DNA of 64,000 bases from Antechinus flavipes. Taxonomy: Eukaryota. Where the stretch lies: NCBI RefSeq assembly GCF_016432865.1, contig NC_067401.1, forward strand, positions 190,278,001 through 190,342,000, in the 5' to 3' direction. The position numbers were made by a program, and so were the translations under genes. The stretch's first letter is position 1. Every line of letters begins with the position of its first letter. Positions 5,546 to 34,172 of the stretch are shown piece after piece. The notes below the pieces were generated by a model. It saw only the letters and a program-made list of their open reading frames with translations, was not told the origin of the DNA and did not search any database.

Positions 5546-6443
5546 CTGCATCCCTATTTTCATTGGTCACAAGCTGGGAGAAACTATTAAACAGATTGGT
5601 CAGGGCTGCCTAATTTGTGTCCAAATAAATCCTAAATGGGCTCCTAACTCCCCTCTCCCCCTTCAAGTCTTCCTCTGGGTAGGATTCCTGGTTACTGTTC
5701 TTGCTAACCCCCATACTAACTTCACTTTTGATTATTCTTTTTTGGTCACATTTGGCCCCGGAAATTTTAATCTACTTGTGAGATTTGTTTATTACAGACT
5801 CCAAGCCATTAACTTCCAAATGCTTGTTCAACCTGAATATCACCTGCTACCTGATCCTGACACTCAGCAACCCCTGGATGCTGCTGCCTCTACTTTCAAG
5901 TCACATGTCTCCTCTCTATGCCCCTTATCAGTTTGAAGCAGCTCCAGATGATGAGACCTTTATCCCTTTGTCTCAAATGAATTTGGCTCTCAACTGAGGT
6001 GGGTGAATAATGGAGTGCAGCTTCTTTGGAAATGTCACCCTGAGGCCCTCGATCTTAGAACAAACATTGCTGACTGTCAGATGAACAATCTATTTGTCAA
6101 TAACCTTAAAGTGTCCTGGCCTTGGAGTGGCAACAACTCTGAGGTCACCTGACTTTAGGGGTACTGTAGTCCTACAAACATTGCTGACTGGTAAACAATC
6201 TGTTAGTCAGTGATAATAAAATTCCTGAGACAATAGTGAATAGACCACCCCTCAAACCTATCTGTAAGCCATAAAATTAGCAAATAAGTAACATGAAGTT
6301 CCTGATAGCTCTTTTTCCTAAAATTTATCTTCTTACTCCTGGGTCTTTGTTACATTCTTTTGAAACTTAGCCCACTTCAATTGGCTTTACAATTATAATA
6401 AAATTTATCCCTTACCTTGCAGATGGATTCAAGCCTGCAAATT

Positions 6444-7128
6444 ATTATTATTATTTTTTATTATAGTTTTTTATTTACAAGTTATATGCCTGGGTAATTT
6501 TTCAGCATTGACAATTGCCAAACCTTTTGTTCCAATTTTTCCCCTTCTTCCCCTCACCCCCTCCCCCAGATGGCAGGTTGACCAATACATATTAAATATG
6601 TTAAAGTATAAATTAAATACAATATAAGTATACATGTCCAAACCGTTATTTTGCTGTACAAAAAGAATCGGACTTTGAAATAATGTACAATTAGCCTGTG
6701 AAGGAAATCCAAAATGCAGGCGGACAAAAATAGAGGGATTGGGAATTCTATGTAATGGTTCATAGTCATCTCCCAGAGTTCTTTTGCTGGGTGTAGCTGG
6801 TTCAATTTATTATTGCTCTATTGGAACTGATTTGGTTCATCTCATTGTTGAAGAGGGCCACGTCCATCAGAACTGATCATCATATAGTATTGTTGTTGAA
6901 GTATATAATTCTCTCCTGGTCCTGCTCATTTCACTCAGCATCAATTCATGTAAGTCTCTCCAGGCCTCTCTGAAATCATCCTGTTGGTCATTTCTTACCG
7001 AACAATAATATTCCATAATATTCATATACCACAATTTATTCAGCCATTCTCCAATTGATGGGCATCCACTCAGTTTCCAGTTTCTGGCCACTACAAAGAG
7101 GGCTGCCACATACATTCTTGTACATACA
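6444..7128 (-). mobile_element. 5'-truncated L1 3' end
   Basis: A/T-rich tail; TSD AAGCCTGCAAATT/AGGCCTGAAAATT. Homologous to 11650-12205 and 22808-23319. Confidence 0.85.
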
Positions 7129-7394
7129 AGGCCTGAAAATTCTTTTGAGACATCTCGTGACACTGGTCGGAAACCCCAACCTTTTGGGATCTCATTTGAA
7201 CCTTAACACTACTAATTTTGAAAAAATATGTTACTATTTACAATTGTCCTTTGTGTAACAATCATTTGGAGGAAGCTAAGCTGGTGAGACTAACTTATTA
7301 TTCTATTATTCTTCCCTTGAGGATTGATCAGGGAAAGTAGTTTTTATTCTAAACTCCTAAAAGACCTTGTCTTACATTTCCAATTGTCTTTTAG

Positions 7395-9060
7395 ACATCT
7401 TGAACCAGTTATCCTATGTTATATCTATGGATAAAGGAAAACTTTATGACCAAGCAAGAGATAGAGAGCATTATAAGATATAAACTGGATAATTTTGATT
7501 ACATCAAATTTAAAAGGTTTTACACAAACAAAACTAATGCAGGCAAGATTAGAAAGAAAGAAGGAAACTGGGAAAACATTATTACAGCAAGTTTCTTAAA
7601 TAAAGGACTTATTTCTTAAATATATAAAGAACTGAGTGAAATTTACAAATCTGTGTCCTTCCTCAATTAAAAAATGGTCAAAGGATATGAACAGGCAGTT
7701 TTCAGAAGAAATCAAAGCTATTTGTAGTCATATGAAAAATGCTCATGTCATTTATTGACTAGAAAAATACAAATTAAAAGACCTCTATCTATCAAATAGG
7801 ATAATATGACAGAAAAGGAAAATGATAAATGTTGGCAGGGATGTGTACTGCTACACTGTTGGTAGAGTTGTGAATTGATTCAACCATTCTGGAGGGCAAT
7901 TTGAAACTTTGCCCAAAGAGCAATCTTTGATCCAGCAATACCACTACTAAATGTATCCCAAAGAGATCAAAGTAAAAGAAAAAGAAAAAGATTTAGTGCA
8001 GCTGTTTTTATTTTTGTAGTGGCAAACAATGGGAAATTGACAAGATATCATCCATCTATCAATTGGGGAATGGCTGAACAAGTATATGATTGTGACAGAA
8101 TACTATTGTGCTATAAGAAATGATGAGCATGATAATTTCAGAAAAACCTGGGAAGACTTACATAAATTGATACAAAATGAAATGAGCAGAACCAGGAGAA
8201 TATTTATATATAGTAACAGCAGTACTGTACAATAATCAACTGTGACTGACTTAATTATTCTGGACAATTCTGGAGACTAATCTGAAGTTATCCCTAAAGG
8301 GCAAAACCTTAGCTCTACATACCCTTTAACCCACAATACCTCTGTTAGGTAAACAGGGAAAAAGGAAAAGAACCTATCTGACAAAAATATTTATTACGGC
8401 TCTTTTTGCAGTGGCAAAGAATTGTGAATTGAAGGGATGCCCTTCAGTTAGGAAATGGCTGAACAACTTGTATATAAAAGGGACACTAGGTGACATAGTA
8501 GATGGAACTCTGGGCCTGTAACCAGGGAGAATGGAGTTCAAATACAGCCTCAGAGATTTACTACCTTTGTGGCCCTGGACATTAACCTTGTTCACCTCAT
8601 TTCCAGATCTGTAAAATGAACTGGAGAAGGAAATGGCAGACCACTTCAGTATCTTAGTCAAGGAAACTTCAAGTGAGGTCACAAAGAGTCAAACACAACT
8701 AAACAACAAAAATATAATTGTGATAGAATACTACTATGCTGTAAGAAATGACAAGCAGGCTTTTTTAGAAAAACATGGGAAAAAATTGCATGAAATAATG
8801 CAGAGTGAAATGAAAAGAATCAAGAGATTGGTGAATACAGGAACAGCAATATTGTTCAAAGAATAACTGTGAATAATTAAACTATTCTGAATAACATGAA
8901 TATTCAAATTAACTATAAAGGAAAATATTCACCTCCATAGAAAGAATTGAAATATGGAAATATGTATTATCCATTTATATCTTATTAAATGTTGAACTTC
9001 TCTAATGTGGAGTTAGGAGGGAGAGTTGTTTCAAACAACTCAAAACTCAAAATGTAATGA
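7395..9060 (+). mobile_element. Older L1 ORF2/3' fragments
   Basis: ORF2-like peptides (LWIKENFMTKQEIE..KLDNFDYIK) with many stops; interrupted by a CORE-SINE. Confidence 0.7.
8470..8710 (+). mobile_element. Mar1/Ther-type CORE-SINE
   Basis: CORE plus GGAGAAGGAAATGGCAGACCAC tail. Similar copies at 32320-32565 (-), 39318-39545 (+) and 45625-45855 (+). Confidence 0.7.
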
Positions 9061-10237
9061 AAAAATAAATATTTTTTTTTAAAAAAGAAAATAGCTTACT
9101 GGTTGATCTACCTACTAGTCTTTCTCCACTCCATTCAGCCATCATAGTGATTTTCCTGAAGTGAAAGTTTGACCATTTCACCCCTAACACAGTCAACTCT
9201 AATGACTTCTTATTCTGGCATTTAAAGCCCTTCATAACTAAATTCTCTCTCCCTTCATCTTTCCCATCTTTTTATACTTTATATCTCCCTACTAACTCTT
9301 GGATCCAGTGACATTGGCCTCTTTGCTTTTCTTGTCCAAAATAATCCATCTTTCAACTTCTTGCATTTTCATCTATTTTCTTCCATACTTGAAATGATCT
9401 CCTTTCTCATCTCCACCTTCTGGCTTCCCTGGCTTCCTTCCAGTATCAACCAAAATTCTATCTTCTACATGAAGTTTTTCCTGATACCTCTTTTAAAAAA
9501 CATTTTAATTTAATATTTTATTTTTCCCCAGTTACATGTAAAACTATTTTTCAACATTTGTTTTTTAAATTTGTTGATTTCCAGATTCTTTCCCTTCTTT
9601 TCTCTCCACTTTTTCCCATAAAGCATTGTGAAATTATGCAAATCATTTCCACAAGTCATATTTTAAAAGAAAACATAGGACCTCTCCCCCACCCCCCAAA
9701 ATAAGCCAACCCAAAAAGCTTCAAGAAATAAAGTTTAAAAAAAGTATGATTCGATCAGTACTGAGGCACAATCAATTCTTTCTCTGGATTTGGATAGCAT
9801 TTTTCATCATAAATCTTTCAGAGTTATCTTGGATTCTAATACCTCTTAACAATAGTCCATTATATCTTTATTATTTCTAACGTATCTTGTATATATCTTT
9901 TGGTACTTAGTCATTTTCATGTTGTCTCCCCCATTAAATTGTGATCTTTTTGAGAGCAGAAGGAATCTTTTATCTTTTTTTTTTTTTTTTAAGGAACTCG
10001 GGGAACCTGGAATTTTAAAATCTGAATTTAGATACTAGCTGTTTACACAACATACAAAATGGTAGGGACTACATTAGTGTAACAGGCAGCACTGAGCAGG
10101 CAGGGGGTGCTCTGTCCTTCTGTATGAATACTATGTCATGCTTACAGCAAGACAGAAGGTTCTGTCCTGTAAATAATACATGTTTTACCCTAGCATCAAG
10201 TCCTTTACCCACATCTCTTCAAGTTCTCATTCTTTTT

Positions 10238-10575
10238 TTTTTTTGTTTTGTTTTTAATTTTATCATTTAATTTTTATTCTTTCTTTATTCTTATTAAAGC
10301 TTTTTATTTACAAAACATATGCATGGATAATTTTTCAACATTGACCCTTGCAAAACTTTCTGTTCCAAATTTTCCCCTCTTTTCTCCCATCCTCTCTCCT
10401 AGATGGCAGATAGTTCCAATAACAAGTATGTTAATATATATTAAATCCAATATATATATACATATTTATTCACTTATCTAGCTGCACAAGAAAAATTGGA
10501 TCTAGGAAAAAACAAAACCTGAGAAGGAAAACAAAATACAAGTGAACATCAACACAAAGTGTGAAAATACTATGT
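10238..10575 (-). mobile_element. L1 3' end fragment
   Basis: T-rich tail and the shared AAAGCTTTTTATTTACAAAACATATGCATG signature. Confidence 0.75.
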
Positions 10576-11649
10576 TCTCATTCCTTTTGAAAAGCATTAA
10601 CTATCTCTTAGGAGGTTTTTTGGTTTGTTTTTCCCCAAAGAACCTTAAAGCAGAAGAATTTCTTCTCTCTGATTCTACCATGCAGCACCAGCTCTTTTAG
10701 ACTTTATTCCAAACTCCTCTTGCTCTTCATTCATTTGTGCTGAATTTCTTGCATGCTGAACATTTTGTAAACAAGGGGAAAATATGTTCTAAAATGTATA
10801 TAGCAGTTCTCTTGGTGGTGACAAAGAACTGGAAATTACTGGGATGTCCATCAAGTGGATAATGGCTGAACAAGTCATGCTATGATTGTGATGGAATACT
10901 ACTGTGCTATAAGAAATAATGAGCTCAATGAGTATAGAAAAACACTGAAGGACTTGCAGGAAAAAATGAAAATGAAATGAACAGAACCAAGAGAAGACTG
11001 TAAACAGTAACAGGAGTATTGTTTTAAGAACGACTTTGATTATTATAAATACCCAAATTAACCATAAAGAACATATGAAGAAAGATGCTATTTAAATTCA
11101 GAGAAATATAGACCTATTTTGGTCTAATGGTAGACATCTGGGGGGAGGGAAGAAAAAAAAACTTTAAATGATAATTTTGTTGTATATTTGAAAGGAATAA
11201 CAAGTTGTGTACAGTAGACTTGCAGTGTCGTGAGCAATCATTTTTTTGGTACTGTTATAGAAATACTAGTTTTATTCCATAAATTAAAAATAATAAAAAT
11301 AATTAAAAAAAAATTCTCAAACTGAATGACTTATGCCTCTCAAACTTCTATTCTCTGATGGATCTTCTTTGAGCTCTTTGAGCTCAGTTGGATTTTTCTC
11401 TGAGATCTGTCTGGACTTCTTTCTCCACCATCTCCTCATTTGGATACTTTCTTTCTTCTTACCTATTTTTTGATATAAAATCTAAGTATTTTATATACCA
11501 AGGTTTTAATTTTCTGCTAAAATTAGAGATTTAATTTTACAAAGAGGAATTTAGGATATACTGTTTTTCTTCTTTATTTAATCATTTAGTATTTTATCTT
11601 TTCCCAATTACAATTTTAGCATTTTTTTCCTTTCAAATTTTGAATTCTA

Positions 11650-12205
11650 TATTATTGTTCTGTAAAAAATGACCAACAAGATGATTTCGGAAAGGCCTGG
11701 AGAGATTTACAAGAACTGATGCTGAGTGAAATGAGCAGGACTAGGAGATCATTATATACTTCAACAATACTATATGGTGATCGATTCTGATGGACGTGGC
11801 CCTCTTCAACAATGAGACGAACTAAGTCAGTAATGAACTGAACCAGCTACACCCAGTGAAAGCATTCAGGGAGATAACTATGAACCATTACATAAAATTC
11901 CCAATCCCTCTATTTTTGTCTGCCTGCATTTTTTTATTTCCTTCGCAGGCTAATTGTATACTATTTCAAAGTCTGATTCATTTTATATAGCAAAATAACT
12001 GTATGGACATGTATACATATATTGTATTTAACTTATACTTTAACATGTATAACATGTATTGGTTAACCTACCATCTGGGGGAGGGGGTGGGGGGAAGGAG
12101 GGTAAAAGTTGGAACAAAAGGTTTTGCAATTGTCAATGCTGTAAAATTACCCATGCATATATCTTGTACATAAAAAAGCTATAATAAAAAATAAACAAAC
12201 AAACA
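11650..12205 (+). mobile_element. 5'-truncated L1 3' end
   Basis: Ends AAAAAGCTATAATAAAAAA; flanked by CAAATTTTGAATT repeats. Confidence 0.8.
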
Positions 12206-12904
12206 AATTTTGAATTTCAAATTCTCTCCCTCCTTCCCTTCCTGTCCTGTTCATAGGAGGACTTCAGTACCAGCCCAAGTTCTAATCTTGGGTGAGGAGT
12301 GATGAGGTAGAATTCACGAGGATGGTCAAGCAGGAGTCTGATTATTCAAAATATTCTCAGCCTTATATATCCTATGTTTATATAATACACTTACATAACT
12401 ATAGGATACCATGCGTGAACTAAATATAGGATACTACGAATGGGGAACCACATAAAAAACTTGCTATTGTATGCAGATGTTTCTTTGTCACATCAGCATA
12501 ACTCTGTTTCAAGTATAACATAGATTGTCATGCCCTCTGACTTCTCAGGAAGGCTGATATACACTTAGGAGAAATGGGGAGCCAATCCAGACACTGTCAG
12601 CAGAGTTCCTTACTGGACTACTTACCTCTCCCAGAGCTCCCCACTATCTGTAGCCCTCTACACCTTCCCCCTCATTAAGAAAGCAAGCACTTTGACTTAA
12701 GTTATACATTGTAGTTAGGCAAAACACATTCCCATGAAAGTCATTCTGTGGGGAAAAAAAAAAAAAGACAGACAAAAAAATCACAAGAAAAATGAAGATA
12801 AAGCATCTTTGATCAGTATTCAGGCTTTATCTGAAGATGGACAACACCTTTCATCATAGTCCTACAGATTATTTTGGATCATTGCTTAAGAATAGCTAAG
12901 ATTC

Positions 12905-13068
12905 AGGCAGCTAGGTGGCACAATGGATAGAGTACCAGCCCTGAAATCAGGAGGACCTGAGTTTAAATCTGGTCTCAGACACTTAACACTTCCTAGCTGT
13001 GTGACCCCAGGCAAGTCACTTAACCAAGTCACTTAACTCCAATTGCCTCAGGAAAAAAAAAAAAAAAG
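12905..13068 (+). mobile_element. WSINE1-like CORE-SINE
   Basis: GGCAGCTAGGTGGCACAATGGATAGAG head, CORE and A-tail. Confidence 0.85.
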
Positions 13069-13074
13069 CTAAGT

Positions 13075-14130
13075 TATCATTGTACAATATTGTTATTATG
13101 CTGTATACTGTTCTCATAGTTCTCCTCATTTCACTTTGCATCAGTTCATGTAAGTCTTTTCATGTTTTTCTGAGAACATGCTGCTGCTTATCATTTCTTA
13201 AAAGTATAATAATATTCCATTACAATTATATACATAATCATATATGCATTCAGCCATTCCCCAATTGATGGATATCCCCATAATTTTCAATTTTTTACCA
13301 CCACTGCTACAAATATTTTCATACATATAGGTCCTTTTCCTTTTTGCTTTTTTATTTCTTTGGGATACAGATCTAATAGTATTGCTTAGTTAAAGGTTGT
13401 GCATGGTTTTGTACACTTTTAAGCTTAATTCCAAATTGGTTTCTAGAATGGTTGAATTAGTATACAACTTCATCAATAGTTAGTATTTCAATTTTCCCAC
13501 ATCCTCGCTAATTTTTGTTATTTTCCTTTTTTGCCATATTATCCAATCTGACAGGTGTGAGGTAGCAGCTGAGAGTTGTTTTAATGTGTATTTATCTCAT
13601 CAGTAATGATTTAAAGTATTTAAAAATATGATTATAGATAACTTTAATTACTTTGTCTGAAAACTATCATTCATATCCCTTAGTCATTTATCAGTTGAGG
13701 AATGGCTTTTATTTCTACAAAATTTGACTCATTTTTCTATATATTTGAGAAATGAAATCTTTATCAGAGATACTCACCATAAATATCTTTATTCACAGTA
13801 ATTACCAACTATGTATTTCCCTCTATCCTATTCACCCCTGTTTATTCTACTCATACTCTCTCTCCTTTTATCCTGTCCATTCTCAAAAGTATTTTGCTTC
13901 TGACTTTTGCATCCTTCAACTGTCCTCCCTTATATCTCTCTACCTCCACTCGTTTTTCCTTCCCTTCCTACTTTCCTATGTGGTAAGAGACTTCTACACT
14001 CCACTGAGTGTGTATATTACTCTTTCTTTGAACCAATTCTGATGAGAATAAGGTTTACGTGCACCCCTCCCCACTTTCCCCATTGTCTTCTCCACTGTAA
14101 AATCTCTTTCAGGCTCTTATGTCAGATAGT
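13075..14130 (-). mobile_element. Older L1 ORF2/3' fragment
   Basis: Antisense L1 motifs TTTCACTTTGCATCAGTTCATGTAAGTCT and CAGCCATTCCCCAATTGATGG. Confidence 0.7.
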
Positions 14131-14149
14131 TTGATCTATTTTACCTTTC

Positions 14150-14325
14150 CCTTTCCCTTTCCCCCAATGCATTCTTCTTCTTCTACTTGTTCTTCTTGTC
14201 TTTGTTCTTGTTCTTCTCATTGTTCTTCTTCTTCTCTTTCTTCCTTCCTTCTTCCTCTTCTTCTTTTTGTTCCTCCTCTTCCTCCTCTCCTTCCTCATCT
14301 TCTTCCTCCTCTTCTTCTTCCAAAA
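14150..14325. repeat. Degenerate (CTT/CCT)n polypyrimidine tract
   Basis: Low-complexity sequence that produces spurious Ser-rich and Lys/Arg-rich ORFs. Confidence 0.9.
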
Positions 14326-16899: not shown

Positions 16900-17842
16900 A
16901 TTCGCCTTTGTTTTGAACTTAGAACAGGAAAAGGCATTCCACAATACAATAGATCAAAGACATTTAGTGTTAGGAACATTCTTCTCTCTGCCATGTAGCC
17001 TGCAAGCCATGTCAGTTGGTAAGGTTGGCTCAGGAAGTAAAAAGGGGCTTGGTCTCTGAGGCAGGAGGTTGTGTTTGGCAGGTGTTTGGCAGGAACTACT
17101 AATAGGTTCCTTGAGGTGGTGAGGAGTATGTTCTCTTGCTAGATGTCCACCTGGGACACAGCTTTAATTTCAGGTGTCTCCCTTCTGTGGCTCCACCTAT
17201 GTTGTACTGAGTGAACTGGGCACAGGGTAATCCCAGAAGAGAAGAAGCAAAAATAGCCAGCTTTGAGTTGAACTCAGAGATGAGCACAGGGTCTCTTGTT
17301 CTTGCTTCCTGCTAACCCCTGCTGTGATAATTACTAAATAAAGATAGGCTATTTGTGCCTCCTGATCAGCTCATCTCCATGTGTATCCGGGTGGCTCCAA
17401 AGTCTGGTGAGTATGGCCCTGACAGCCTAGAATAGTGGTTGGACAGTCTGGCACAAGTGGCGCCCATACGTGGGGTAGGATTAAGGCCAGGGACACTGTG
17501 AGTCGGCTGGTCAGATCATAGGAAGGGAGACAAGACCCCAAGACTGATAGTAGGTCTGGGAAGGAAGATGGTACAGGTTTTTATTAGGGTCCCAGATCAG
17601 GAGGTACTGAGGAAAGAAGTTTATAGAATAGTAAAGCAAGCAGGAAGTGGATGTGATGTTGCAGGAGCATGCAGTGGGAAAGAAGCAGGAAGTGGATAGG
17701 ACAAAACAGGAAGGAATAAGATGAGGAATGAAGAAGTAAACAGAGGGAGGTATGAAAAAACAGACATGGCCACGGGAGGAGGCAGGGATAAGATGAGGGA
17801 AGAGAAGGAGAACAGAGGGAAGATTGCTTCTGCCTCCAAGGC

Positions 17843-20540
17843 ATGGCCTACTCCTCTGACACCCTGACTCCCCCCTTGTCCTTCCCTGAGGAGGAATGCT
17901 TCCCTTCTGCTCCTTATGCACCCCCTTGTGGAGGCTTTGGAGATTTACTGACAGAATTAGGACAGATGTTACAGAAGGCAGCAAATGAAGGGGACCAGGA
18001 AGCAAGGATTTGGCTGATGCTCTTCCTGTGTTTGATGGCCCCCAGGAAAGGACGTAGACCCCATTAGAGTGGAAGAAATTTAAATAACTGAAAGAGGCAG
18101 TTAACACTTATGGAGTTGAATCTCCAAATGTTAAGGAGCTGTTGGCTCTCCTAGCCTCCAGCAATATACTAACCCCAAATAATTGGAAGACTCTTGCTAA
18201 AGTCTGCCTTACACCTGGGGAGTCTGTACAATGGATGACTCTGCAGACTTAGCAAAAAACTTCGTAAGAGACATGCAGAGCCACATCCCTCAAGATGATT
18301 TTTACAAAATAGTAGGAGTTGGAAAGTATGAAAGGAATGAGGATCAAATACAATATGATACAACAGTGTATGTGGCTGTGTCTCAATGTGCCCAAGGAGC
18401 ATTTAGCAAAATTCAAGTTTCTATGTAAAGGGTAAAATGATGTGGGCAGTCATTTCATTTGGGAATGCCCTTGTGTTACTCTGCAGCTCTTTACATTGCC
18501 AGTCTCTCCTAATTCCCAGGGCTTCAGAGAATCCTCTGGCCATTGACGTTTGAAATGTCAACCGATAACCTGGTTTACCTCTTCTGAGGCCTTCAGAGAT
18601 CTCTGGCTATGATTTCTTCAATCATAGTTTAATAACCGATTGTGCGCTCAAGAACAGCCATGTGCAAATTTAAAGTCTTTTATTATATTTCCTCACATAT
18701 TGCCCTGACTTGTTAACTCCCAAGTGAACACCCAGTCTGTGATAGACCCACGTGTTCACTATCAAGCTTCTTACCTCTTAGCTATCCATGCACTCAGCTT
18801 CCCCAGGACAAAGAGATTGACCTCTTGCTTGCACCAGGGTTAAGAAGGGACTGTGAGGTCACACACACAGCCAATCAGAGAGGGAGATGTCTCCCATTAC
18901 TATCTCAATATGACCAGGGTCGGCCCATGAAGTGGTCTCTGCTCTCAGAAATTATTTCTGGGCCTCTCAAGTTCAACCTCCTGTTTGCCCTGGGCTGACC
19001 CATTTAAAAGACCCTAACTCTTCTGGAAAGCAGAAGCCCTCAATGACAAAGCTTAAACAGAGCCCAGATGAATCTTTCCCTGATTTTGTGACCCACCTAT
19101 AGATGACTGTTGAGAGGTTAGTAGGTAAAGGAGAAGTAGCTGGTCTTCTTATCCAGAAATTAGCTAAGGAGAATGCTAATGACCCCTGCCAGAAAGCCAT
19201 GCTCTTCTTAGATGGGGACACAAGCCTTGAGGAGATGATAAAAAAATGTGAAAATGTTTGCTCCAGTGCCTTTCAAATGGATGTCCTCGCAGTTGCTATT
19301 TCTAAAGGAGTCATGGAGGAAATGAAGTTTAGGGAAACCAAGATGTTATCAATGTGGGAAGACTGGTCACTTCAGGGCCTCACAACAAGCTTATCAGGTG
19401 GAAGAAAGGCATTCTCCGGTGACTCAATCAGGACTACAGCAGGAGTACCTCTGGTTTCTGCCAGGTGGTTCTGGTTTCCCCTTCACAATGTGGGGAGTTT
19501 CCAAATTGACCCTGGATATATAACCATAGTGCCAGAAACCAGGCTAGACCTAATCTTAAGAGCGGGCTTCTTGGTGGTGGGCTTGACAAATTTTATACCC
19601 TTGTTGTAGTTCATACCACAGTTATTACAACAGAACAATCTCAGACTGTGGTGACTACTCCACAAAACACACCAGCATTTTTAGATAAGGGTGAGCTAAT
19701 ATAGCACAGATTCTCCCTCTCTTAGATGGGTCAGATTCTGACATTCATTGGATGCAGCATATAAAGCAAGGCAAGCCTTGGACCAATATATATGTTAAAG
19801 TAAAGGCATTTAAAGGGCTACTTGACACTGGAGCTGATAGGTCTGTTATCTCACAGTTCTTCCGGCCCCCTTTATGGCAGGTTTGTGCAGATGCTACAAT
19901 GTTTAACAGGGTGGGAAAAGCACAGCAGGCATGGGTTTCAGCAGAAGATCTGCCCTGGCAGTTTGCAGACAAACAGGAGATATTCCAATCCCTGGTGGTC
20001 GCAGGTCTCAGGTACAATCTATGGGGTAGAGATATATTGAAGCCTTGTGGAGCCTCAGTGGCTCCTCCACTCCTCAGTGGAACCTCCACAAGATTTTTAA
20101 TTGGGGTCATTGAGTATTCAAGCACCACCTTTCATATTACGCCCATACCATTAACATGGAAATACCCTATTTTAGTACCCCAATGGCCCCTCCCAGTGGA
20201 AAATATCTCTAATCAAATGGCCATCTTCTTTACAACATTCGCCAATAAACAAATTACAGAGATTCCCTATAATCCACAGGGTCAAGCCCTAGTGCAAGGG
20301 GCCCATTGCATTCAAAAGGCCAACCTTACTTAAAATTTTTTGTGTCTTATAGACAGGACAGAAAACTAAGCTCCATAAAAACAGCACTTCAAGTGCTGGA
20401 GAACATTCAAAAGGTTCTTTGGAAGGAGGAGAAAAAGGATATTGGCAAGGTCTATCCTTAGTACTTTGGAGAGGGCCAGGCTGTTTATGTCTTGCAGGTC
20501 CTGATGGTGAAAGCTGCTGGATTCCAGAAAGAAGAACAAG
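17843..20540 (+). pseudogene. ERV-B gag-dUTPase-pro-(deleted pol)-IN remnants
   Basis: PSAP late motif; CA LKEAVNTYGVESP; MHR QSPDESFPDFV; LAKENANDPC; zinc knuckle CYQCGKTGH at 19344; protease LLDTGAD...LWGRDIL; RT start PIPLTWK..PQWPL fused directly to integrase IPYNPQGQALV; IN C-terminus WIPERR. Confidence 0.88.
18424..18969 (-). mobile_element. Solo LTR interrupting the ERV-B capsid coding region
   Basis: TG...CA-bounded segment that splits CA between KIQVS and the MHR; minus-strand AATAAA near 18677. No TSD resolved. Confidence 0.6.
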
Positions 20541-21952
20541 GAGAGTTGTTTCTTCCAGACTTCGAATCAAATTTCTATCACTTGGCCAACCTGAATCATC
20601 TGAGATCTGATTCTGACACTCAACATCTGATGCTGCTGCTGCTGCTGCTGCAGCCTACAACTCATTCATCTCCCCTCTTCAGTCCAAACACCCTATACAA
20701 GGTCAGCTATACACCCCTTGTCAACCTGAAGCAGTTCCAGAAGATGAAACCTTCATCCCTTTGCCCCAAATGAATCTGGGTCTGGACTGTTTTGGATCAG
20801 GACAGAAAAAAAAAAAAACTGAGAAAGAAAAAAAAATGCTTTTTATTTACAAAACATATTGGATCAAACATATTTCCTTTCCCATCCCCTCTATTGTATC
20901 TTTGTATTATTGCTTCTTCTGCTTTTGCCTACGTTTTACACGTATTTTTAGAAAATCTATAGAGTTGCTTAAGGAAGAGTTTCTCATTTATAAACATAAA
21001 AACACTCAGACTTATTAATAAAAAAGGAGGAGTTGTTAGGGATATTCCTCTCTCTTCTCGAGAGTTGCCATGTAGCCTATATGCCACGTCAGCTGGTAGG
21101 GTGGGCCTAGGAGGTAAAAAGGGGTTTGGCCTCTGAGGCAGGAAGGTGTGTCTGGCAGGTGTTAAAGGAAACTGCTAATAGATTCTTTGAAGTGGTGAGG
21201 GGTATATCTTCTTGCTAGATCTCCAACTGGGACACAGCTTTAACTCCAGGTATCTTCCTTCTGTGGCTCCACCTGCGCAGTACTGAATGGGCTGGGCATG
21301 GGGTACTCCTGGAAGAGAGGAATCATAGATAGCCAGCTTTGAGCCAAACTCACACATATACACATGCACACTTGTTCTTGTACTCTGTTGCTCTTGCTTC
21401 CTGCTAATCCCTGCTGAGATAATTACTAAATAAAGATAGGCTGTTTGCACCTCCTGATTGACTCCTCTCCATGTGTATCTGGGTGGGCTCGAAGACTGGT
21501 GAGTATGGCCCTGGCAGCCTAGGATAGTGCTCGGACAGTCCAGCACAATTGAGGAAGAACGTGTCAAACATTGATATGATAATTTCTGCTCTGATGAATA
21601 TCACAATTGTTTACAATTCTGTCAAAGTTGCAGATGTCTGGGACTGACTATTTGCATTTCAGTGGATAGATCTTTTGTTAAAGTAGATACAGGAATATCA
21701 AAGTGTGGGTTGTGTATTGACTCTAAAAAATGATGCCAGTGACAATAGATTGAAAATGTATATAACTCTAACTCTCAGATTAGTAAATTTGAAGACTGCA
21801 CAGCAGATCTCTAGTCTGGCCCTTGGTTTTTTTCGTTTCACACCCTTGGTCATTCACTGGAGTTGGACTCTGACAATTGGTGCCCAAAGGCACCAAGGTT
21901 TCATAGAAAGGGTGCCTTCCTTGGGGCATGCAAATTAATGTAAGGGGGAAAA

Positions 21953-22272
21953 TTTTTTTATTATATTATTATTTTTATTAAAGCTTTTTATTTACAAAAC
22001 ACATGCATAGGTAATTTTTCAACATTGACCCTTGCAAAGCCTTCTGTTCCAAATTATCCCCTTGTTCCCGCACCCCCTCCTTTAGATGGCAGGTAGTACA
22101 ATACATGTTAAATATGTTAAAATATATGTTAAATTCAATATATGTATTTATACAGTTGTCTTGCTGCACAAGAAAAATTGGATTAAGACAGAAAAAAAAC
22201 TGAGAAAGAAAAAAAATGCAAGTGAACAATAACAGAAAGAGTGAGAATGCTATGTTGTGGTCCACGCTCAGT
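21953..22272 (-). mobile_element. 5'-truncated L1 3' end
   Basis: TSD GGGGGAAAA at 21944-21952 and 22273-22281. Confidence 0.8.
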
Positions 22273-23619: not shown

Positions 23620-23664
<45 letters not shown>

Positions 23665-24990: not shown

Positions 24991-25063
24991 GAGCATGTTA
25001 GCTTGGATTTGTTCCCCTTGGAGTGGACTCTTTTTAAGGATTGCTCTGAAGATTGATATGGCC

Positions 25064-25489
25064 TTCTCCAATTGATAAATGGTCAAAGGATATGAACAGA
25101 CAGTTTTCAGATGATGAAATTGAAACTATTTCCACTCATATGAAAGAGTGTTCCAAATCACTATTGATCAGAGAAATGCAAATTAAGACAACTCTGAGAT
25201 ACCACTACACACCTGTCTGATTGGCTAAGGTGACAAGAAAAAATAATGATGAATGATGGAGGGGATGCAGGAAACCTGGGATACTGATGCATTGTTGGTG
25301 GAGTTGTGAACAAATCCAACCATTCTGGAGAGCAATCTGGAATTATGCCCCAAAAGTTATCAAACTGTGCATACCCTTTGATTCAATAGTGTTACTACTG
25401 GGCTTATATCCCAAAGAGATACTAAAGAAGGGAAAGGGACCTTTTTATAAGTTAAAAAGTATTAAAGTATTAAAAAAAAAGTTTAAAAA
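25064..25489 (+). mobile_element. L1 ORF2 fragment ending early in an A-rich tail
   Basis: Perfect TSD ATTGATATGGCC at 25052-25063 and 25490-25501. The body stops at GGGAAAGGGACC. Confidence 0.75.
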
Positions 25490-25619
25490 ATTGATATGGC
25501 CCAAATCTCTCTGTTTGCTAACCCTTCTCAACTCAGATTCAGATTAAGAAAAGAGAATACTAAAGTATTGTAGAGAAAGCAACAATAGCAGTAGGCTCAA
25601 AGCCTTGCATAAAACTCCT

Positions 25620-26600
25620 CCCCACCCAACTTGGGGGAATGGGAATGGAGTGGAGGTCAGACTCCATGGTCAGCATTGCCAAATGTGGGCACCAGCCACT
25701 CCAGCCTTCATCAGGCTCTGTCCAGCAACTGCTTAGAAAGAATCTGAGTACTTCTGGCAGCATCCAGCATGGCAGCACAACGTGAAAAAGCCACTCAGTC
25801 TCTGTTTTTGGTAAACTCACCATTCTCCGTTTCAGTTACAGAAATGTATTGGCTATGTAATTTGTGGCAAATTATTTTATCTCTGCCTAGTTTTCTGATT
25901 TGTATGATCATTTGATAATGATTGTTGCTTAGCGAAAAAACAAATACTATATGGATGTTAGCTGCTTTATAGGATAAAATTGCTTTATATTTGATAACTT
26001 TATGGATTTTTAGATGTGACCAATATACAATGCCAGTGTTGAGATATATAATTTTGGGGTGTGTGTAAATTAAATTAAGCAAACTCAACTAAATTAAAGC
26101 CTCACTAAGTCCAGGAAGAAAGTATAGAGAATTTTTCTCTTTCCTCCTCCTTCCCTCTTTCTCTTGATTAAAAAAAAGGGAAAAGAGGGAGAGAAAGAAA
26201 ATATACGTAATTCAGTTAAATTTATTATTTGAGATGATAATAAAAGCAGTTTTAAAGGAGCTTTAATCAAAGACCACTAAAGGAACATATAAATTGTAAT
26301 CTATTTGCACTAAATTTAAGAAAACAGAAAAGCAGCATAACTACTCAAAAACTGCCCCCCCCCCCAAAAAAAAAAAATCCAGCCTGCTTTTAAGGTTATC
26401 TAGGGTGAGGCTTCTCAGAGCCCAGACACAAAATTAACATCTTAACTCTTTCCTGGCTCATAAAAAAAAAAAAAAAAGATTTGTATAAATTGGAAAATAT
26501 CCAAATGGTAATTCAGTTTATCCAGAACATTTAATTGATATTTAGGAAATTTCATGAACTAAAGTTAAAAAAATTTCAAAATCTGTTGTAGCTCAATTAA

Positions 26601-26647
<47 letters not shown>

Positions 26648-27827
26648 AAATAGATTTGTTAACTATAAGAAGGTGAAAAGTTTATTTAACTTTGCTAATC
26701 CTGTTTCATATTATTTTGTAAATTTAATTTAAGGAATTAGGTATTTTTCATGTTGCTAAAAAAATTAATAGGAAATTAAACAAAAACTATTTGGTTATTT
26801 TCAGGAAAAATCAAAATTTGTTAGGTTATTTGGAGCTATTGTCATCATGTTAAATCTAAGTCTGATAATTACTGTATCCATAAAACCCCTATGAATGGTG
26901 AGGATTGGCAACAAATAGCTTATTCCTTTCCTGGGGTCACTATCTACCCTTTTAATTTTAATTTTAAGTTTTCTTAACTTTCAGGATAAGTTAGATCATC
27001 AGTCCTGAGAGATGAGCCTGTTTTAGGAAATATAGTAATATATACAACAAGGAAAGTACTGAAATTCTGTAAGTTCATTTTATGATTAATCCTTTGCACC
27101 AGGAAGAGTTGTTAACATACAAAACAAGTTAAACACTCTTTTATGTGTCTAAAGTTTTGGTAAACTTTTAAAAATAATTTATTTAGCCCTAAGTTGCAAT
27201 TAGTAGAATTTGGTATTAGAGATAAAACTCCCCCTTTCTTTTGTTTTAGAACACAGGTGGTCATGCCATAGAGTATGGTCCAATTAGTATTTAGCCTCAC
27301 ATGCTTGGGACCTCAGTGCATCAACTCAAGCTTCAGCCCATTACATAAAACCTCTTAGGACTACTACTGATAGATTTTTTTTTTTAGTTTTGAATTTGAT
27401 TGATCATTAAGTCAGTAATCCACCACTTGAGAGAATTTTCATAAACTACACAGAGAAATGTGACCCTGAACAGATAGGGGTCTGTATCTGAACAAGAGTT
27501 GGAAGCTTTTGCTCAAATCCTTCTAACTCTGTTTCCCAGTTCTGTTTATTTCCTACCTGATCATTCTTGAGTCTGATAAGATAGAACTATTAAAACTGGA
27601 TTTCCATCTAACTTAAGGAAGCTTTATTTTGTCATGTGTATACTCCCAGAATGAGGCCTGAAGAACCAGTTCTGATATTATCATTCCCCCTCTATTTTCT
27701 TCCTATAACAAATTTCTATGATAAGAGCAAATGGCTAATGCAAATTCAGATTGAAAACAATCTGAAAAGATATAATTATTATATCTTAAATAAATTGGTG
27801 AACAAGTATTTAGCCTACCCATCTATT

Positions 27828-27877
<50 letters not shown>

Positions 27878-28380
27878 TATGTATATATATACATATATAT
27901 ATCTGCATGAAATAAAATCCTTATAGATTTCCAACACAACTTAAGAACAATTAATATGATTGTCCATAAGATCTAACTGTTATTTTATTGTTTATTGAAA
28001 GTAAAGCTGAAACATCGTTAACATTTGTATATACTGTATGTCCTGTGACACAAATATATTTCATTATCTGAAAAGTTGTAGGTCAACCTATATTGATGCT
28101 CTTTACATCTTATAGCAGTCCTTGTAAACTTGTTTTTCCATCTTCCTCTATTTGTTAGATTTGTTTTGTATTCTAGATTTTGGTTGGTTACAGCCTGCAT
28201 TGGCCAGCTTCAAGGAACTGAATCAATAATCGGATACTTCAATTAGTTCCAGCTTACCCCCCTCCATAAAAAGATGGGACCCTGCAAGTGGCTCATTTTC
28301 AGCAGGAAGTAGTTTCTGAAGATGAAATCATCCCCCCTGCTCCCAGAGGACTTTGGGCCTCATTGGTTTTTTTTGGGGGG
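25620..28380 (+). mobile_element. AT-rich ERV internal module, copy 2 (replaces pro-pol in ERV-A)
   Basis: Collinear with 745-3945. Ends with the class I 3' motif CAGCAGGAAGTAG and a GGGGGGAA PPT-like tract near 28375. Confidence 0.7.
27831..27901. repeat. (TG)n(TA)n compound microsatellite
   Basis: Seen directly. A similar repeat lies at 23624-23661. Confidence 0.9.
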
Positions 28381-28559
28381 AACTAGAACTAATTGGGGAA
28401 TGGACCCCAAATTATTCAGTGTCTGGATGGGTATCTGTTATAATGTATTTGGGACTTAGGATGGCAGATTTTCACAATTCAGATATAGGATTCCATGATG
28501 TTTTCAAGCCCCTCAGAGATATACTGTACAGAGTGTTTACAAATATCCATAGATGTTTC

Positions 28560-29490
28560 TAACTTCAGATATTATTTTAAGGAATGGCACTAGGATCCAA
28601 ATCATGAATGTGCTAGAAAGATATATTATAACATGTTACAATTGTGTTTTATCCCATTGTCTTACTTCTATCCAAATGTTTTCAAATTTGCTACCTATGG
28701 TTTTTATTATTGAACACTCATCCTACATGATAATGCCTAATAAGATTAATCACAATTGGTACAGATCAGCAGGTGAACAGGTTTGAGAAAATATCAAAGG
28801 AAAGTTAGAAAATAGTAATAGGGAAAAGAGATTTGTTGGATTACTCGCTGTTAGAATTCTAGCAGCTATAGTAATTATTATTACATCACTTGCTCTTACA
28901 GAATTTGTTCAGACTACTCAGTTCGCAGATGAATTACCAAAAAAAAAAAAACAAAAAACAAAAAAACTATCACAAGCTTTTAAAGAACAAAATATAGATA
29001 ATGAGTTAAAATAAAACTAAACTTAGGGAAACAATTATTTATATGATTAGGGAATCATATAAACAATTTGGAATCTTGATTACAGCTAGCTTGTGATTAT
29101 AGATTCAGTCATGTATGTATAATTCCATATAGATGGCATAATGAAACCAATAATGTGACAGGGCTTCAAATAAGGAACAGAATAAATGGAGCTATATATG
29201 ATTCCAATCTCACTTGGGATATATCTCAGCTACCTGTTTTAATAGAAAACATGGAAAAATAGTGTCTCTGGAACTGATTCTGAGAGCATAGCTAACCAAA
29301 TATTCGAGTGGTTAAAAATATAAATCCTATAAATTATCTGACTTCTATGCTTTTGCATTTTGTTCCTCTTGCATGTTTTATTTTTATATTTTTTGGCTTA
29401 GCCCCTTCTGCTTTCAGATATGTCTTGCAATCATTGTCAACTATGAGAACTGAGATCCATAGACTTTGTCTTTTAAATAAAAGGAAGAAA
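28560..29490 (+). pseudogene. ERV-A beta-type env remnant
   Basis: Furin site REKR at 28820-28831, then the hydrophobic fusion peptide FVGLLAVRILAAIVIII. CDYRFSHVC (CX7C, beta-type TM) at 29092-29118. Membrane anchor and tail fall in ORF 29308-29511. Confidence 0.8.
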
Positions 29491-30036
29491 TTGTGGAGGG
29501 CCAGGAAGTAAGTCCAAAAAACAGTAAGAATCCATTTCAGGTTTTGAAACTAACTCTCTTTTAGGACATTCCTTTTTTACTGATCAGTTTTTTCCAATAA
29601 ACAAATTTAGAGACAGACCTATTCAAAAGCTTGATAAAGGATGCCTGCAACTGGAACAAAAATACAAAGACATACCTTTGAACTTAGGACAGGAAAAGGC
29701 ATTCCACTATACATAGATCAAAGACATTTAGGAAGAATGTATCAAAGACATTGATATGATAATTTCTTCTCTGATGACTATCATAACTGTTTACAATTCA
29801 GTCTAGGACTGACTATTTGCATTTCAGTGGATAGATCTTTTGTTAAAGCTGATACAGGAATATCAAAGTGTGGATTGTGTATCAACTCTTAAAAATGATG
29901 CCAGTGACTATATATTGGAAATGTATATAATTAATAAATTCAAAGACTGCACAGCAGATCTCCTGCCTAGCCCTTTTTTTTTTTTAATTTTTAAAATTTC
30001 ACACCCTTGGTCACTCACTGGAACTGTATTCTGACA

Positions 30037-31450
30037 GTTTTCATTTTGGGATCTCTTTCAAGAAGTATATGGTGGATTCTTTCAATTTCTATTTTATCCT
30101 TTGGTTCTAGAATATTAAGGAAGTTTGATAATTTATTGAAAGATGATGTCTAGGTTCTGTTTTTGATCATGACTTTCAGATAATCCAATAATTCTTAAAT
30201 TATATCTCCTGCATCTACTTTTCCAGATCAGTTGTTTTTCTAATGAGGTATTTCACATTCTCTGTTTTTCTTTTTCCATTCTTTTTGATTTTGTTTTGTT
30301 GTTTTTCAGTGTTTCATAAAGTCACTAGTTTAGTAGTATAATTCTACTTCTAAGGAATTATTTTCTTCAGTGAGTTATTGTACTTCTTTTTCCATATGGC
30401 CAATTCTACATTTTAGGAGTTCTCTTTAGTGAATTTTTGTATGTCTTTTTTTTTTTTTTTTAATCTATGTGGCCATTTCTGCTTTTCAAGACATTCTTCT
30501 CTTCAATGGATTTTTTTAAAAAAAGAACATTGTCTTGTGCCCAGAAGAACATCAGGGAGGATTAAAAATATATAACAAAATATTTCCAGTTTAAGAATAT
30601 ATATATGTAGAATAAATTATATTTATGAACATTCACCTTTTCTTTGCTTCCTTGTGAATTGTTCTTTTGTTCTCTGCTGTGCACCTTTTTTTTACTTTAT
30701 TCATCATTGGATTTTTGAGCCTCTTTCAGATTTTTTTTTAAGGTGTTATTTTCTTCAGCATTATTTTGTATGTATGTGTGTGTGTGCACCTGCTTTAGGA
30801 AGCTGTTGGTTTTTTTTTTTTTTCCATTGTTTTCTATAACACTCATTTCTTTTTTCAGTTTTTCCTTTTCCTTCCTTTTCCTTATTCTGGAGACCTGTAA
30901 GTTTATAGCTCTTTCAAAGTAGTATGATCTTCAGGGAGGTATATTTACTACTTTTCTGTGTTGTGCCCTGTTTGTGAACTGTGACCAAGATACCTGCTTT
31001 TCTGTAGCTACAAACTTAGCTGTGCTTATGCTTCTCTTCACCCTGGGATTGAAATCCAGAACTTCAACACAGATCCAAATATAGCCATTGCAACAGAATC
31101 CTGCCCCTGATGCCTCCTTTGTTAAAAGGACCCCTGTAAATCTTTTTCTGATTAGTTGTCCAATCCCCTTACCATCTGTGTGTTGAAAGGAACCACCATT
31201 TTTTGTCACTGATTCAGTCACCTTCAGGCCATTCTTGGTTTGCTGAGGCCTGCTCTTCACTGGCACAGACTGCGCTAGGCTGTCCTACTCTCCTATTCTG
31301 GTGCAACAAACTTTTCCTGCCTTTTCCTTCTCAGTTGCTGGGCTAGAAAATTGTTTTACTCTATCTTTTTGTGTGTTCTGTTGCTCAAGAATTTGCTTAA
31401 AGTCATTATTTAAAGGTATTTGGAGGGGTTTGGGGAAGAGCTCAGGCAAA
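30037..31450 (-). mobile_element. Host L1 fragment, right part (ORF1/5' region)
   Basis: Continuation of the 16290-16566 L1; T-rich antisense ORF1-type sequence. Confidence 0.7.
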
Positions 31451-33434
31451 TCTCAGGATTGTTGTGAGGATAAAATGAAATATTTGTAAAATGTTTTACG
31501 AGCCTTATAAATGCAAGCTATTGCTAGTACCACTACATAATGATAATAAATGCTTATTTATTGATTGGTCTTCTTGGCTTCCAAGGTATTTGCTATGAAG
31601 AAGTTATATGCTAAGAAAGAAAAAACTTGCTTGATTTGATCCCACTAGGGGTTTTCTTTCCTTTTCTACATTTTGTCTTATTCAGTCTTTACTTGCCAAC
31701 ATCCTAAAGCTTTTAGGTGTCTAGTCCTTCATTTCTCAACCATTGTCCCTAAATCTTGCCTTAAAATCCTCTTCTTTTCTTGGCTCACCAAGCTATAAAG
31801 GATATGTTTTTCCAAGGGGGTTTTATTTGGGTAAGATTTGTTGATCAGGAAAGTCCATGATCAATTTGAGGAATTTCCCCTATCAACTTAATGGGCTTTT
31901 AATTGAAGCACTATGAGACCATGGTGCATGTCACTTGCACCTTGCTGAGAAGACACAGAGAACTAATGATTGGGTTTCAGAAGATGTTACTGTCTCTAAG
32001 ATAATTGACTGGTAGAGATTCAGGTGAAAAGATTTCTGTTGAAGGAATTACCTCTCTTTTATAGTGTATAAAATCATTTAAAAGCCCACCTTTCTTCCCT
32101 TTGGAATTCCCTTTCATTTTTCCCTTTTCAGAAGAGAGACCAGTATACCAGTATAGTGTAACTGCATTCTAGGTAACAAAGGAACCTGTGCTCATACAAA
32201 GCATTCCCCAAAGTAACTAGAACTAGCTACCAAGATATAACCACCCCAACCTGGGGAAATCCTAGGACCATCTAAACTTATAATACTACCCTGTAGTTTA
32301 AGGTAAGGGGACATACTTTTTTTGGTGTTGTTGATGAATCATTTCAATTGTGTCCGACCTTCATGACCCCATTTGAAGTTTTCTTGGCAAAGATATTAGA
32401 GTGGTTTGCCATTTCCTTCTCTAGCTCATTTGACAGATCAGGGACTGAAGCAAACGGGGTAAATGACTTACCTAAGTGTCATACAGCTAAATGAATGTCT
32501 GAGACTCATTTTGAAATTAGATTTTCCTGATTCTAGGCTGGTGTTTTACCCACCTAGCTGCCCCTGGGATATACTTTGAGAAGTAATCTTCTGGCAATTT
32601 GACGTGTATTATTTGAGTAACTTACTGGTTTTGTCTTCCAAGTAGAAGCTGCTCAGGAATTCTGTAGTTTGTTCTCCTTTTTCTCAAAAAGCATGATTCA
32701 TATGAAATCTGGAACTTGGGAATAAAACTCTCAAGATTGGGACTCCTATCTTTGGCCAAGTGGGCACACACATTTGCTTTTTCCATGTGTTTTTGCAGAA
32801 CAAAATCCTCAATACTTGTCTGTTACCACCTCTGGAACTGGGAAAATCCACTTTTAAGATCTTTCCTTTCTGACTGTTGCAAGAAAGTATAACTGTTAGC
32901 TATCCCTGCCAGGGCAGCCATTTTTAGTTCCAGGAAAAAGAGGAATTTTCAATTGCACAAGTTTCTATACTGTGCCTATATTTCCTATTAGAGCTGTGGT
33001 GAAGAGAGTATTTTATAATGCTCAGAATAAACTTAGGTTAGCAAGGAAATCTAAGAGGGTGTTTTGGAGGTTTGTTAGCTTTGAAAACTGTATTGGAAGA
33101 AAAGGGATAATCAAAAAGGGGAAAAAAATCTTTGCTTGGATTGAATGGAATAATGATTGCTAAAAATAGTAAGCTGTAGCTGCTCAATTAATTTTATTTC
33201 TCTTCTCTGCCAAGGAGAATGAATTTTTTGCTAGAAATGATAGAACAAAAATGACTGTTAACAGAAATTAATATTCAAAATAAATAAGAGAGATAGTAAA
33301 AGAACATAGTTTCCCCTAAATTCAAGTTATTTGACCCAGATAAAGTGAATCAGCAACAAAAGATTGGCAGATTTGATTACTGAGCCACTATTAGTAATAT
33401 TTGAAACAGCATAGATAAGATACCCTAACAGCGA

Positions 33435-34172
33435 TGAGGGTCCCCCTGCCAGTGTCGCAGATTTTGCGAAAGAATTCGCAGTTCATCTCCAAGAGAGATT
33501 TGGCAAAAATGGATTTATTTTTACTGAGTAGTTCTCTCAGTGGGTCACTGATTAGGAAGATAGCAAAGACTGGGATACAGAGTCTTGATTTTATTTAGTC
33601 TTTTATGGCTTTGGACTAGGGAGGGACTAATTTCCAAATCAATAAGGGTGATGATTGTTTTCCAGACCAAAGTGATTCCCAGATCAACTGGAGGTGGGGA
33701 TGCTCCCAGAGGCTGGGAGGGTATGAGATTCAGGATTTTCCAACCCAAATCCATTCCCCAAAGATCAGGGGGACACAGAGTCTTATTATATCATTCCCCC
33801 CTCCAAATTCATTTGGGGCAAAGATCTCATCTTCTGAAGCTGCTTCAGGCTGACAAGGACTGCAGATCTGTCCCTCCACTCAATGGGGTTCAGGCCAGGA
33901 GGGGAAGTACATGCTTTGAAGATAACAGCAGCAACATCTAGGCTATGTTGAGTGTCCAAGTCAGTTAGCCCATGATTTTCAGACTGAACAAGTAGTTGGA
34001 GGTTTGTAGCTTGGAGCCTGGAGGAAATGAATCTTACAAGCACGTTAAAAGTGGGGTAGCATCCAGGGTGGAGATGGAGACAATTGGGAATTGGAACTTG
34101 GCAAAAAAATGCATTAAGATACATCTTCCCTAGTCTGACTAGGAAGTTAGCTCCCCACCAGTAAGGACCCAT
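33435..34172 (-). mobile_element. Class I ERV 3' fragment: env tail, PPT and LTR
   Basis: ORF 33786-34172 reads FNVLVRFISSRLQATNLQLLVQ. PPT GGAGGGGGGAA is followed by an LTR at 33793-33435 (TGA...CCTCA) containing AATAAA. Confidence 0.8.

What the first reader, a model, noticed from the sequence alone, without database searches (positions are those of the whole stretch)
5921..33860. Conserved ~65-nt pre-PPT motif in four different ERVs, including a beta-type provirus
CTT(G/A)TCAnnnTGAAGCAG(C/T)T(C/T)CAGA(A/T)GATGA(G/A)A...CTTTG(C/T)C(C/T)CAAATGAAT(T/C)TGG occurs at 5921-5986 (+), 20714-20779 (+) and 33803-33860 (-), and more distantly at 28294-28358 (+). At 5.9 kb and 33.8 kb it follows a gamma-type env tail. 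At 20.7 kb it lies in ERV-B, whose gag, pro, IN and Lys PBS are beta-type. It is better conserved than its surroundings, which suggests a cis-acting RNA element (export, packaging or strand transfer) and a type-D-like class I/II recombinant ancestry for ERV-B.
Basis: partly seen in the sequence, partly recalled or inferred. Interest (0 to 1): 0.7.

Follow-up and report, generated by a model that had tools for sequence, protein, structure and literature searches.

The report
Known SPRE element, captured by beta-ERVs
The short stretch shared by four viral fossils matches SPRE, a known retroviral RNA element that likely once boosted viral protein output; in two of the fossils it sits inside an unrelated beta-type virus backbone, which likely picked it up by recombination.

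Summary
[quoted passage not shown] Copies A, B and C match the reporter-active syncytin-Car1 core at 13, 13 and 15 of 17 bases; D matches the mac-syncytin-3 core at 16 of 17. A, B and C share one class I env-tail lineage over about 250 nt, so their likeness is mostly descent. Only against D is the motif a conserved island. It is non-coding in most copies and has no shared fold. ERV-B is not type D: it has no gamma env, only a 250-nt tail+SPRE cassette joined at a microhomology into an env-less beta family. Carriers form one clade (16 of 16, 100/99) inside the cassette-less majority, and the cassette nests among class I donors. D lies in a second, unrelated beta-type family, 1.1 kb before its PPT. 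What looks new is a breakpoint-level case of the recombinational SPRE transfer that Kitao only proposed. No benefit is shown: cassette-less copies are more numerous. The scan's earlier notes held nothing on this.

The parts
5541..5936 (+). Copy A: class I (gamma-type) 3' remnant; the env-tail frame ends at a TGA inside the SPRE core (5934-5936)
   Evidence: Translation; a relative with this tail carries an RNase H piece whose best PDB hits are XMRV/MLV-type; TM-tail wording recalled, no Pfam or protein hit
5916..5986 (+). SPRE-like element A: 5' C-rich, core 5928-5944, 3' C-rich
   Evidence: 13 of 17 to the Car1 core; alignment
5996..6439 (+). PPT-like tract 5996-6010 and 3' LTR of A (TG at 6011; end approximate)
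   Evidence: Sequence; repeated family
16968..17455 (+). ERV-B 5' LTR; Lys-type PBS at 17458-17475; 6-bp target duplication ATTTAG/ATTGAG
   Evidence: LTR pair 79.5% identical; PBS type and 6-bp rule recalled
17560..20540 (+). ERV-B beta-type gag, pro and integrase C-terminal remnants; RT-RNase H deleted
   Evidence: Pfam Gag_p24, Gag_p24_C, zf-CCHC, RVP, IN_DBD_C; protease best PDB hits 1nso/3sqf (recalled as M-PMV); relatives keep RVT_1 and RVT_thumb, best PDB hit 7sr6 (recalled as HERV-K RT)
20541..20792 (+). Captured class I cassette: env tail plus SPRE; 5' junction in the microhomology GAGAGTTG at 20541-20548
   Evidence: Donor homology starts and stops at these places in 9 of 9 loci
20709..20779 (+). 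SPRE-like element B, core 20721-20737
   Evidence: 13 of 17 to the Car1 and syncytin-1/2 cores
20857..21033 (+). ERV-B's own beta-like env tail and PPT (21020-21033), shared with cassette-less relatives
   Evidence: env identity inferred from a translation ending KKGG over the PPT (recalled signature); no Pfam hit
21034..21547 (+). ERV-B 3' LTR
28150..28358 (+). Copy D: decayed env-tail-like remnant and canonical-type SPRE, core 28299-28315
   Evidence: 16 of 17 to the mac-syncytin-3 core; found in 19 of 19 relatives
28740..29490 (+). Beta-type env remnant and PPT (29479-29490) downstream of D; LTR from 29492
   Evidence: Pfam GP41 E 4.5e-5, below the curated cut-off; family-wide linkage; full-length relative L240 has a Lys-type PBS, Gag_p10 and RVT_thumb
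33794..34060 (-). Copy C: class I env tail, SPRE-like element (core 33853-33837, 8-nt deletion in the 3' C-rich part), PPT 33804-33794
   Evidence: 15 of 17 to the Car1 core
33436..33793 (-). 3' LTR of C (end approximate)

Best explanation
The motif matches SPRE, the three-part RNA element at the 3' end of class I retroviral env genes, and these decayed copies likely served, as SPRE does in reporters, to lift protein output from viral mRNA; ERV-B's family likely gained it once by a reverse-transcriptase template switch. Shown: sequence match, position, non-coding state, junctions, clades. Inferred: a host protein binds the single-stranded core and C-rich flanks in the 3' UTR and relieves repression by the viral coding sequence. 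Inferred: the beta element's RNA was co-packaged with a class I RNA, and RT jumped at a short shared word, replacing about 75 nt of integrase tail with about 250 nt of env tail plus SPRE. The recombinant, which lacks RT, then spread with help in trans. D's family is likely a second, independent class I-to-II capture.
For: Core matches of 13-16 of 17, and 23 columns invariant across the Car1 primer and all four copies. 123 exact genomic matches to 16 nt of the published core and 112 to the Car1-like variant, controls 0. The motif follows the env tail in 14 of 14 loci picked by tail protein alone. Between the B/donor and D lineages only core plus 13 nt is conserved (69-84% versus 27-54% elsewhere, 5' C-rich 60-64%). 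A stop lies about 150 nt upstream of the core in 13 of 16 carriers and 6 of 9 donors. Carriers match donors at 74-89% from -175 to +74 and 26-32% outside, with one 5' junction in a shared GAGAGTTG(C) word. The backbone tree gives carriers as one clade, 16 of 16, 100/99, inside 30 non-carriers. The cassette tree nests them among class I donors. Profile hits: 10 of 10 carriers, 0 of 10 non-carriers over 9 kb.
Against: No activity was tested for these copies, and the published SPRE profile was not available. Three of the five core positions that vary between lineages are third codon positions of the env frame, so past overlap with env coding may have shaped the core. The integrase-only tree does not resolve carriers (4 changes). 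The window's own cassette falls apart from the other 16, with weak support, so a second switch or conversion is possible. The 'gamma env tail' and 'beta env tail' labels rest partly on recalled signatures (no Pfam or protein hit). One junction-bearing locus shows no motif hit (L236).
Confidence: 0.8

Rival explanations
1. Passive hitchhiking: the motif is SPRE by descent but did nothing for the beta recombinant; it came along with a 250-nt tail and drifted.
For: The cassette is not trimmed to the motif: the first 75 nt of tail are as conserved within carriers (88%) as the core (85%). Junction patterns find 88 cassette-less versus 22 carrier-type matches, 6 of the 22 being chance. LTR pairs are of like age in both groups (73-82% and 75-86%).
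Against: 19 of 20 junction-bearing loci keep the motif while gag, pro and pol are variously deleted; a second beta-type family also holds an SPRE.
Confidence: 0.5
2. The element acts in cis on the RNA genome (export, stability, packaging or strand transfer), which is why non-coding, non-autonomous elements keep and capture it.
For: It persists in RT-less carriers (9 of 9 informative) down to 1.8-kb internal regions, and in AT-rich families with few open frames.
Against: The published effect is on protein level with slight mRNA change (PMC8579622). The RT loss is one clade, so one event. No shared fold.
Confidence: 0.2
3. Type-D-like ancestry: ERV-B descends from a beta/gamma recombinant virus with a full gamma env, later deleted.
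For: Type D clades exist in marsupials (PMC11334065); a gamma-type tail follows the integrase.
Against: No env family hit in carriers or non-carriers. The cassette starts inside the cytoplasmic tail and truncates integrase. The beta-like env tail, PPT and LTR follow it. Carriers nest inside non-carriers.
Confidence: 0.05
4. Pure protein constraint on the Env C-terminus.
For: Three of five between-lineage core changes are at third positions; third positions are slightly less conserved within two of three families (0.90-0.91 versus 0.92-0.95).
Against: The env frame stops inside the core (A) or about 150 nt before it (13 of 16, 6 of 9); the best-kept part (+17 to +29) lies after any stop.
Confidence: 0.05

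Closest known systems
SPRE / SPRE-like elements (Kitao, Nakagawa, Miyazawa 2021, PMC8579622), above all SPRE-syn-Car1 and SPRE-mac-syn3
   Same: 17-nt core with C-rich flanks, 3' position at the env tail, no shared fold. The paper lists 378 families, with 11 rows for Tasmanian devil, 5 koala, 8 wombat, 53-71 genomic hits in those three, and a few murid ERV2 families; it proposes transfer by recombination.
   Different: Here a transfer is resolved: donor family, cassette-less recipient family, junction microhomology and two trees. In B and D the element lies upstream of a beta-type env remnant, not next to the PPT. Activity of these copies is untested.
Type D betaretroviruses and marsupial MEBrv 1/2 (PMC11334065)
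   Same: Class II gag-pro-pol joined to class I 3' sequence
   Different: They carry a whole gamma env; ERV-B carries only about 250 nt of tail and keeps a beta-like 3' end
MEBrv 3 env-less dasyurid betaretroelement (PMC11334065)
   Same: Env-less beta-type element with a class I trace after pol
   Different: MEBrv 3 has an ISD remnant, intact genes and near-identical LTRs; this family has about 80% LTR pairs and no env hit. Not compared by sequence.
M-PMV CTE / MLV CAE
   Same: Cis-acting post-transcriptional elements of simple retroviruses
   Different: NXF1-binding export elements; no Rfam match in the window and no stable fold in the motif

Membership tests
SPRE | 17-nt core motif | tested here: met
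   A 13, B 13, C 15 of 17 to the Car1 core; D 16 of 17 to mac-syn3, 15 of 17 to syncytin-1/2
SPRE | 5' C-rich motif | tested here: met
   Clear in A and B, partial in C, decayed in D but present in D's relatives
SPRE | 3' C-rich motif | tested here: met
   Present in A, B and D; partly deleted (8 nt) in C
SPRE | Internal 3' position at or after the env tail, upstream of the LTR | tested here: met
   All four are internal and upstream of a 3' LTR; adjacent in A and C, 240 nt in B, 1.1 kb in D. Absent from 28 of 28 LTR-picked loci, read as solo or 5' LTRs, not checked.
SPRE | Score against the published profile HMM | not testable with these tools
   Profile not held; supplement files 3-5 are images and could not be read
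SPRE | Core-dependent gain in reporter protein output | not testable with these tools
   Needs a bench assay
Type D betaretrovirus | Beta-type gag-pro-pol | tested here: met
Type D betaretrovirus | Gamma-type env ectodomain (ISD, CX6CC) | tested here: not met
   Only about 170 nt lie between integrase and motif; no env family hit in ERV-B, 2 of 2 carriers or 2 of 2 non-carriers scanned
Structured retroviral export element (CTE-like) | Stable, covarying stem-loop | tested here: not met
   Fold z-scores -0.6 to +0.7; consensus energy -0.44 kcal/mol with one covarying pair; core-to-3'-arm pairing below shuffled control in 3 of 5 families

The most novel reading that the evidence does not exclude
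SPRE is a portable module that class II retroelements captured more than once from class I genomes and kept under selection even after losing coding capacity. That would mean it works on the RNA genome itself (export, stability or packaging), and the carrier/non-carrier sister families are a natural experiment for its unknown mechanism.
Probability: 0.2. Interest if true: 0.6.

Novelty: new member of a known kind. Interest (0 to 1): 0.33.

Why it matters
The motif itself is known. The useful addition is a mapped class I-to-II transfer with donor, recipient and breakpoint, which backs recombination over convergence as the reason SPRE turns up in unrelated ERVs, a question Kitao 2021 left open. 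It also extends the Car1-type core to over a hundred copies in this genome. If non-coding elements were shown to keep it under selection, SPRE would have a role beyond translation.

Tried and rejected
Rfam scan of the window: 0 matches. Conserved structure: RNAalifold offers a 6-pair helix between core and 3' arm, 94.7% of cells paired and above slid controls, but with one covarying pair that is one lineage event. Per-copy pairing beat shuffles only in the two canonical-core families (0.41 versus 0.29; 0.50 versus 0.24) and fell below in the three Car1-type ones. Rejected as a shared fold. Naming the env tails by database failed: Pfam and a protein search among longer proteins (0 of 69 candidates). 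One PDB search used a wrong frame and found nothing. LTR-picked relatives of A and C lacked the motif (0 of 14, 0 of 14). The integrase-only tree was too short to resolve. Cluster d5 (3 loci) looked like a third beta capture by eye but showed no beta parts. The 2019 SPRE paper is not held, so its export-versus-translation result was not seen. Earlier scan notes: 0 by words, 2 unrelated by place, 0 by sequence.
Full report
Observation. The four copies are in the sequence at about the stated places, with cores at 5928, 20721, 28299 (+) and 33853 (-). A pattern drawn from them has no match in 100 shuffles. A four-row profile finds nothing else in the window below E 0.07. I label them A (5.9 kb), B (20.7 kb), C (33.8 kb) and D (28.3 kb). 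The window lies in G000:C4.

Identity. The motif matches SPRE. I read parts 1-4 of 7 of PMC8579622 (abstract, results, discussion, start of methods), Table S5 whole, and part 1 of 5 of Table S1 plus searched rows of S1 and S2. Three image supplements could not be read. SPRE is a 17-nt core with two C-rich flanks at the 3' end of env. It raises HIV-1 Gag reporter and syncytin output, depends on the coding sequence, changes mRNA level only slightly, and has no agreed fold. The paper lists 378 families, including marsupial ones and a few murid ERV2 families, and suggests spread by recombination. Its reporter-active SPRE-syn-Car1 has the same variant core as A, B and C: 13, 13 and 15 of 17 bases; D matches mac-syncytin-3 at 16 of 17. 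23 columns are invariant across the Car1 primer and all four copies. The genome holds 123 exact matches to 16 nt of the canonical core and 112 to the Car1-like variant, with 0 for reversed controls. The motif follows the env tail in 14 of 14 loci picked by tail protein and 4 of 5 further ones. One such locus carries an RNase H piece closest to XMRV/MLV, which places this lineage in class I.

How independent are the copies? Of 64 rows (60 core loci and the four copies), upstream sequence gives one cluster of 30 with A, B and C, one of 28 with D, and 6 singletons; downstream sequence gives 11 clusters. So A, B and C are one env-tail lineage under different LTRs. Among them the core plus 13 nt is 76-85% alike and the 85 nt upstream 53-71%. 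Between the B or donor families and D's family, only core plus 13 nt (69-84%) and the 5' C-rich part (60-64%) stand above 27-54% elsewhere. That island is the real sign of constraint.

Not protein constraint. In A the env frame ends at 5934-5936, inside the core. A stop lies about 150 nt upstream of the core in 13 of 16 carriers and 6 of 9 donors. Column conservation by codon position is nearly flat (0.92/0.94/0.90, 0.93/0.95/0.91, 0.92/0.87/0.88). Against this, three of five core positions that vary between lineages are third positions, so old overlap with env may have shaped the core. No shared RNA structure was found.

ERV-B. It has LTRs at 16968-17455 and 21034-21547 (79.5% alike), a 6-bp target duplication, a Lys-type PBS, and gag, pro and integrase C-terminal remnants. 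The protease's best PDB hits are 1nso and 3sqf, and a relative's RT hits 7sr6 at E 1e-68, far above lentiviral RTs (virus names M-PMV and HERV-K recalled). The stretch 20541-20792 is foreign: 9 of 9 class I-type loci match it and nothing else of ERV-B. Of 19 relatives picked by integrase alone, 2 carry it and 17 go straight to a short beta-like env tail, PPT and LTR. A junction query gave 18 carriers among 30 loci. One more carrier, and one junction without a motif hit, came from 8 loci checked. All carriers aligned share one 5' junction, inside a GAGAGTTG(C) word found in both the integrase tail and the donor tail, as expected of an RT template switch (inferred). A tree of the backbone downstream of the cassette (46 rows kept from 70 loci after dropping duplicates and loci without both flanks) puts 16 of 16 carriers in one clade, 100/99, inside non-carriers by midpoint root; the integrase-only tree is unresolved. 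A tree of the cassette (58 rows) nests carriers among donors, 16 of 17 in one clade (99), the window copy apart with weak support. Over 9 kb the profile hits 10 of 10 carriers and 0 of 10 non-carriers. Nine of 9 informative carriers lack RT; 8 of 9 informative non-carriers keep that region; this is one event, not nine. No env family was found in either group, so type D is rejected. Junction patterns give 88 non-carrier versus 22 carrier-type matches, 6 of them chance, so no gain in copy number is shown.

Element D. Its family (355 candidates, 40 scored) places the SPRE 1.1 kb before the PPT, ahead of a GP41-like remnant. A full-length relative has a Lys-type PBS, Gag_p10 and RT-thumb remnants and no blastn or tblastx match to ERV-B. 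It is likely a second class II host of SPRE, with the canonical core. Its breakpoints were not mapped.

Mechanism. Shown here: sequence, position, non-coding state, junctions, clades. From the paper: SPRE raises protein output in cis and needs core and C-rich flanks. Inferred: these copies did the same for their ancestors; capture came by co-packaging and template switch; the RT-less carriers spread in trans. Whether the cassette helped them is open, and hitchhiking is about as likely as not.

Literature on novelty. Searches for 'SPRE-like' with recombination gave 3 papers, for SPRE follow-ups 4, and for non-autonomous marsupial chimeras with template switch 1 unrelated paper; from listings, none maps such a capture. 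For PMC11334065 I saw passages and sections 7 and 10: it reports whole-env beta/gamma recombinants; the passages seen do not discuss SPRE. For PMC9367772 and the bioRxiv version of Kitao I saw passages. The 2019 SPRE paper was not held. Subscription journals, Dfam and Repbase were not searchable, so the carrier family may already be catalogued.

Verdict. A new member of a known kind, with a well-resolved but modest evolutionary addition. Interest 0.33.

Noticed in passing
window 16915-16967 and 21548-21880: ERV-B sits inside a copy of the same LTR type that closes element D (29492 on); the halves match D's LTR at 95% and 78% and rejoin at the 6-bp duplication.
   Followed up: yes
window 18440-19000: A 560-nt insertion in ERV-B gag found in none of 20 relatives; looks like an antisense solo LTR by eye.
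   Followed up: partly
window 20793-20856: The roughly 100 nt that follow the cassette in other carriers are replaced here by an A-rich piece resembling the reverse LINE end at 22138-22216.
   Followed up: no
window 27500-27740: An AT-rich non-coding segment upstream of D is shared by 23 of 60 SPRE-core loci from several LTR families; possibly a second cis element of non-autonomous class I internals.
   Followed up: partly
L240 (G000:C1:697236500-697246499): Full-length relative of D, about 8.8 kb, LTR pair 93% identical, Lys-type PBS, Gag_p10 and RT-thumb remnants: a beta shell around a class I-like AT-rich block and SPRE.
   Followed up: partly
L101-L130: 24 of 30 canonical-core loci form a family related to D upstream, in most of which the +17 to +29 part has diverged.
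   Followed up: no
window 20520-20570: The integrase frame runs in frame into the captured env-tail frame; in most carriers it stops a few codons after the junction.
   Followed up: partly
window 59536-59756: An imperfect 6/12-nt repeat array that would encode an Arg/Asp-rich stretch on the minus strand; perhaps part of a host gene or retrocopy.
   Followed up: no
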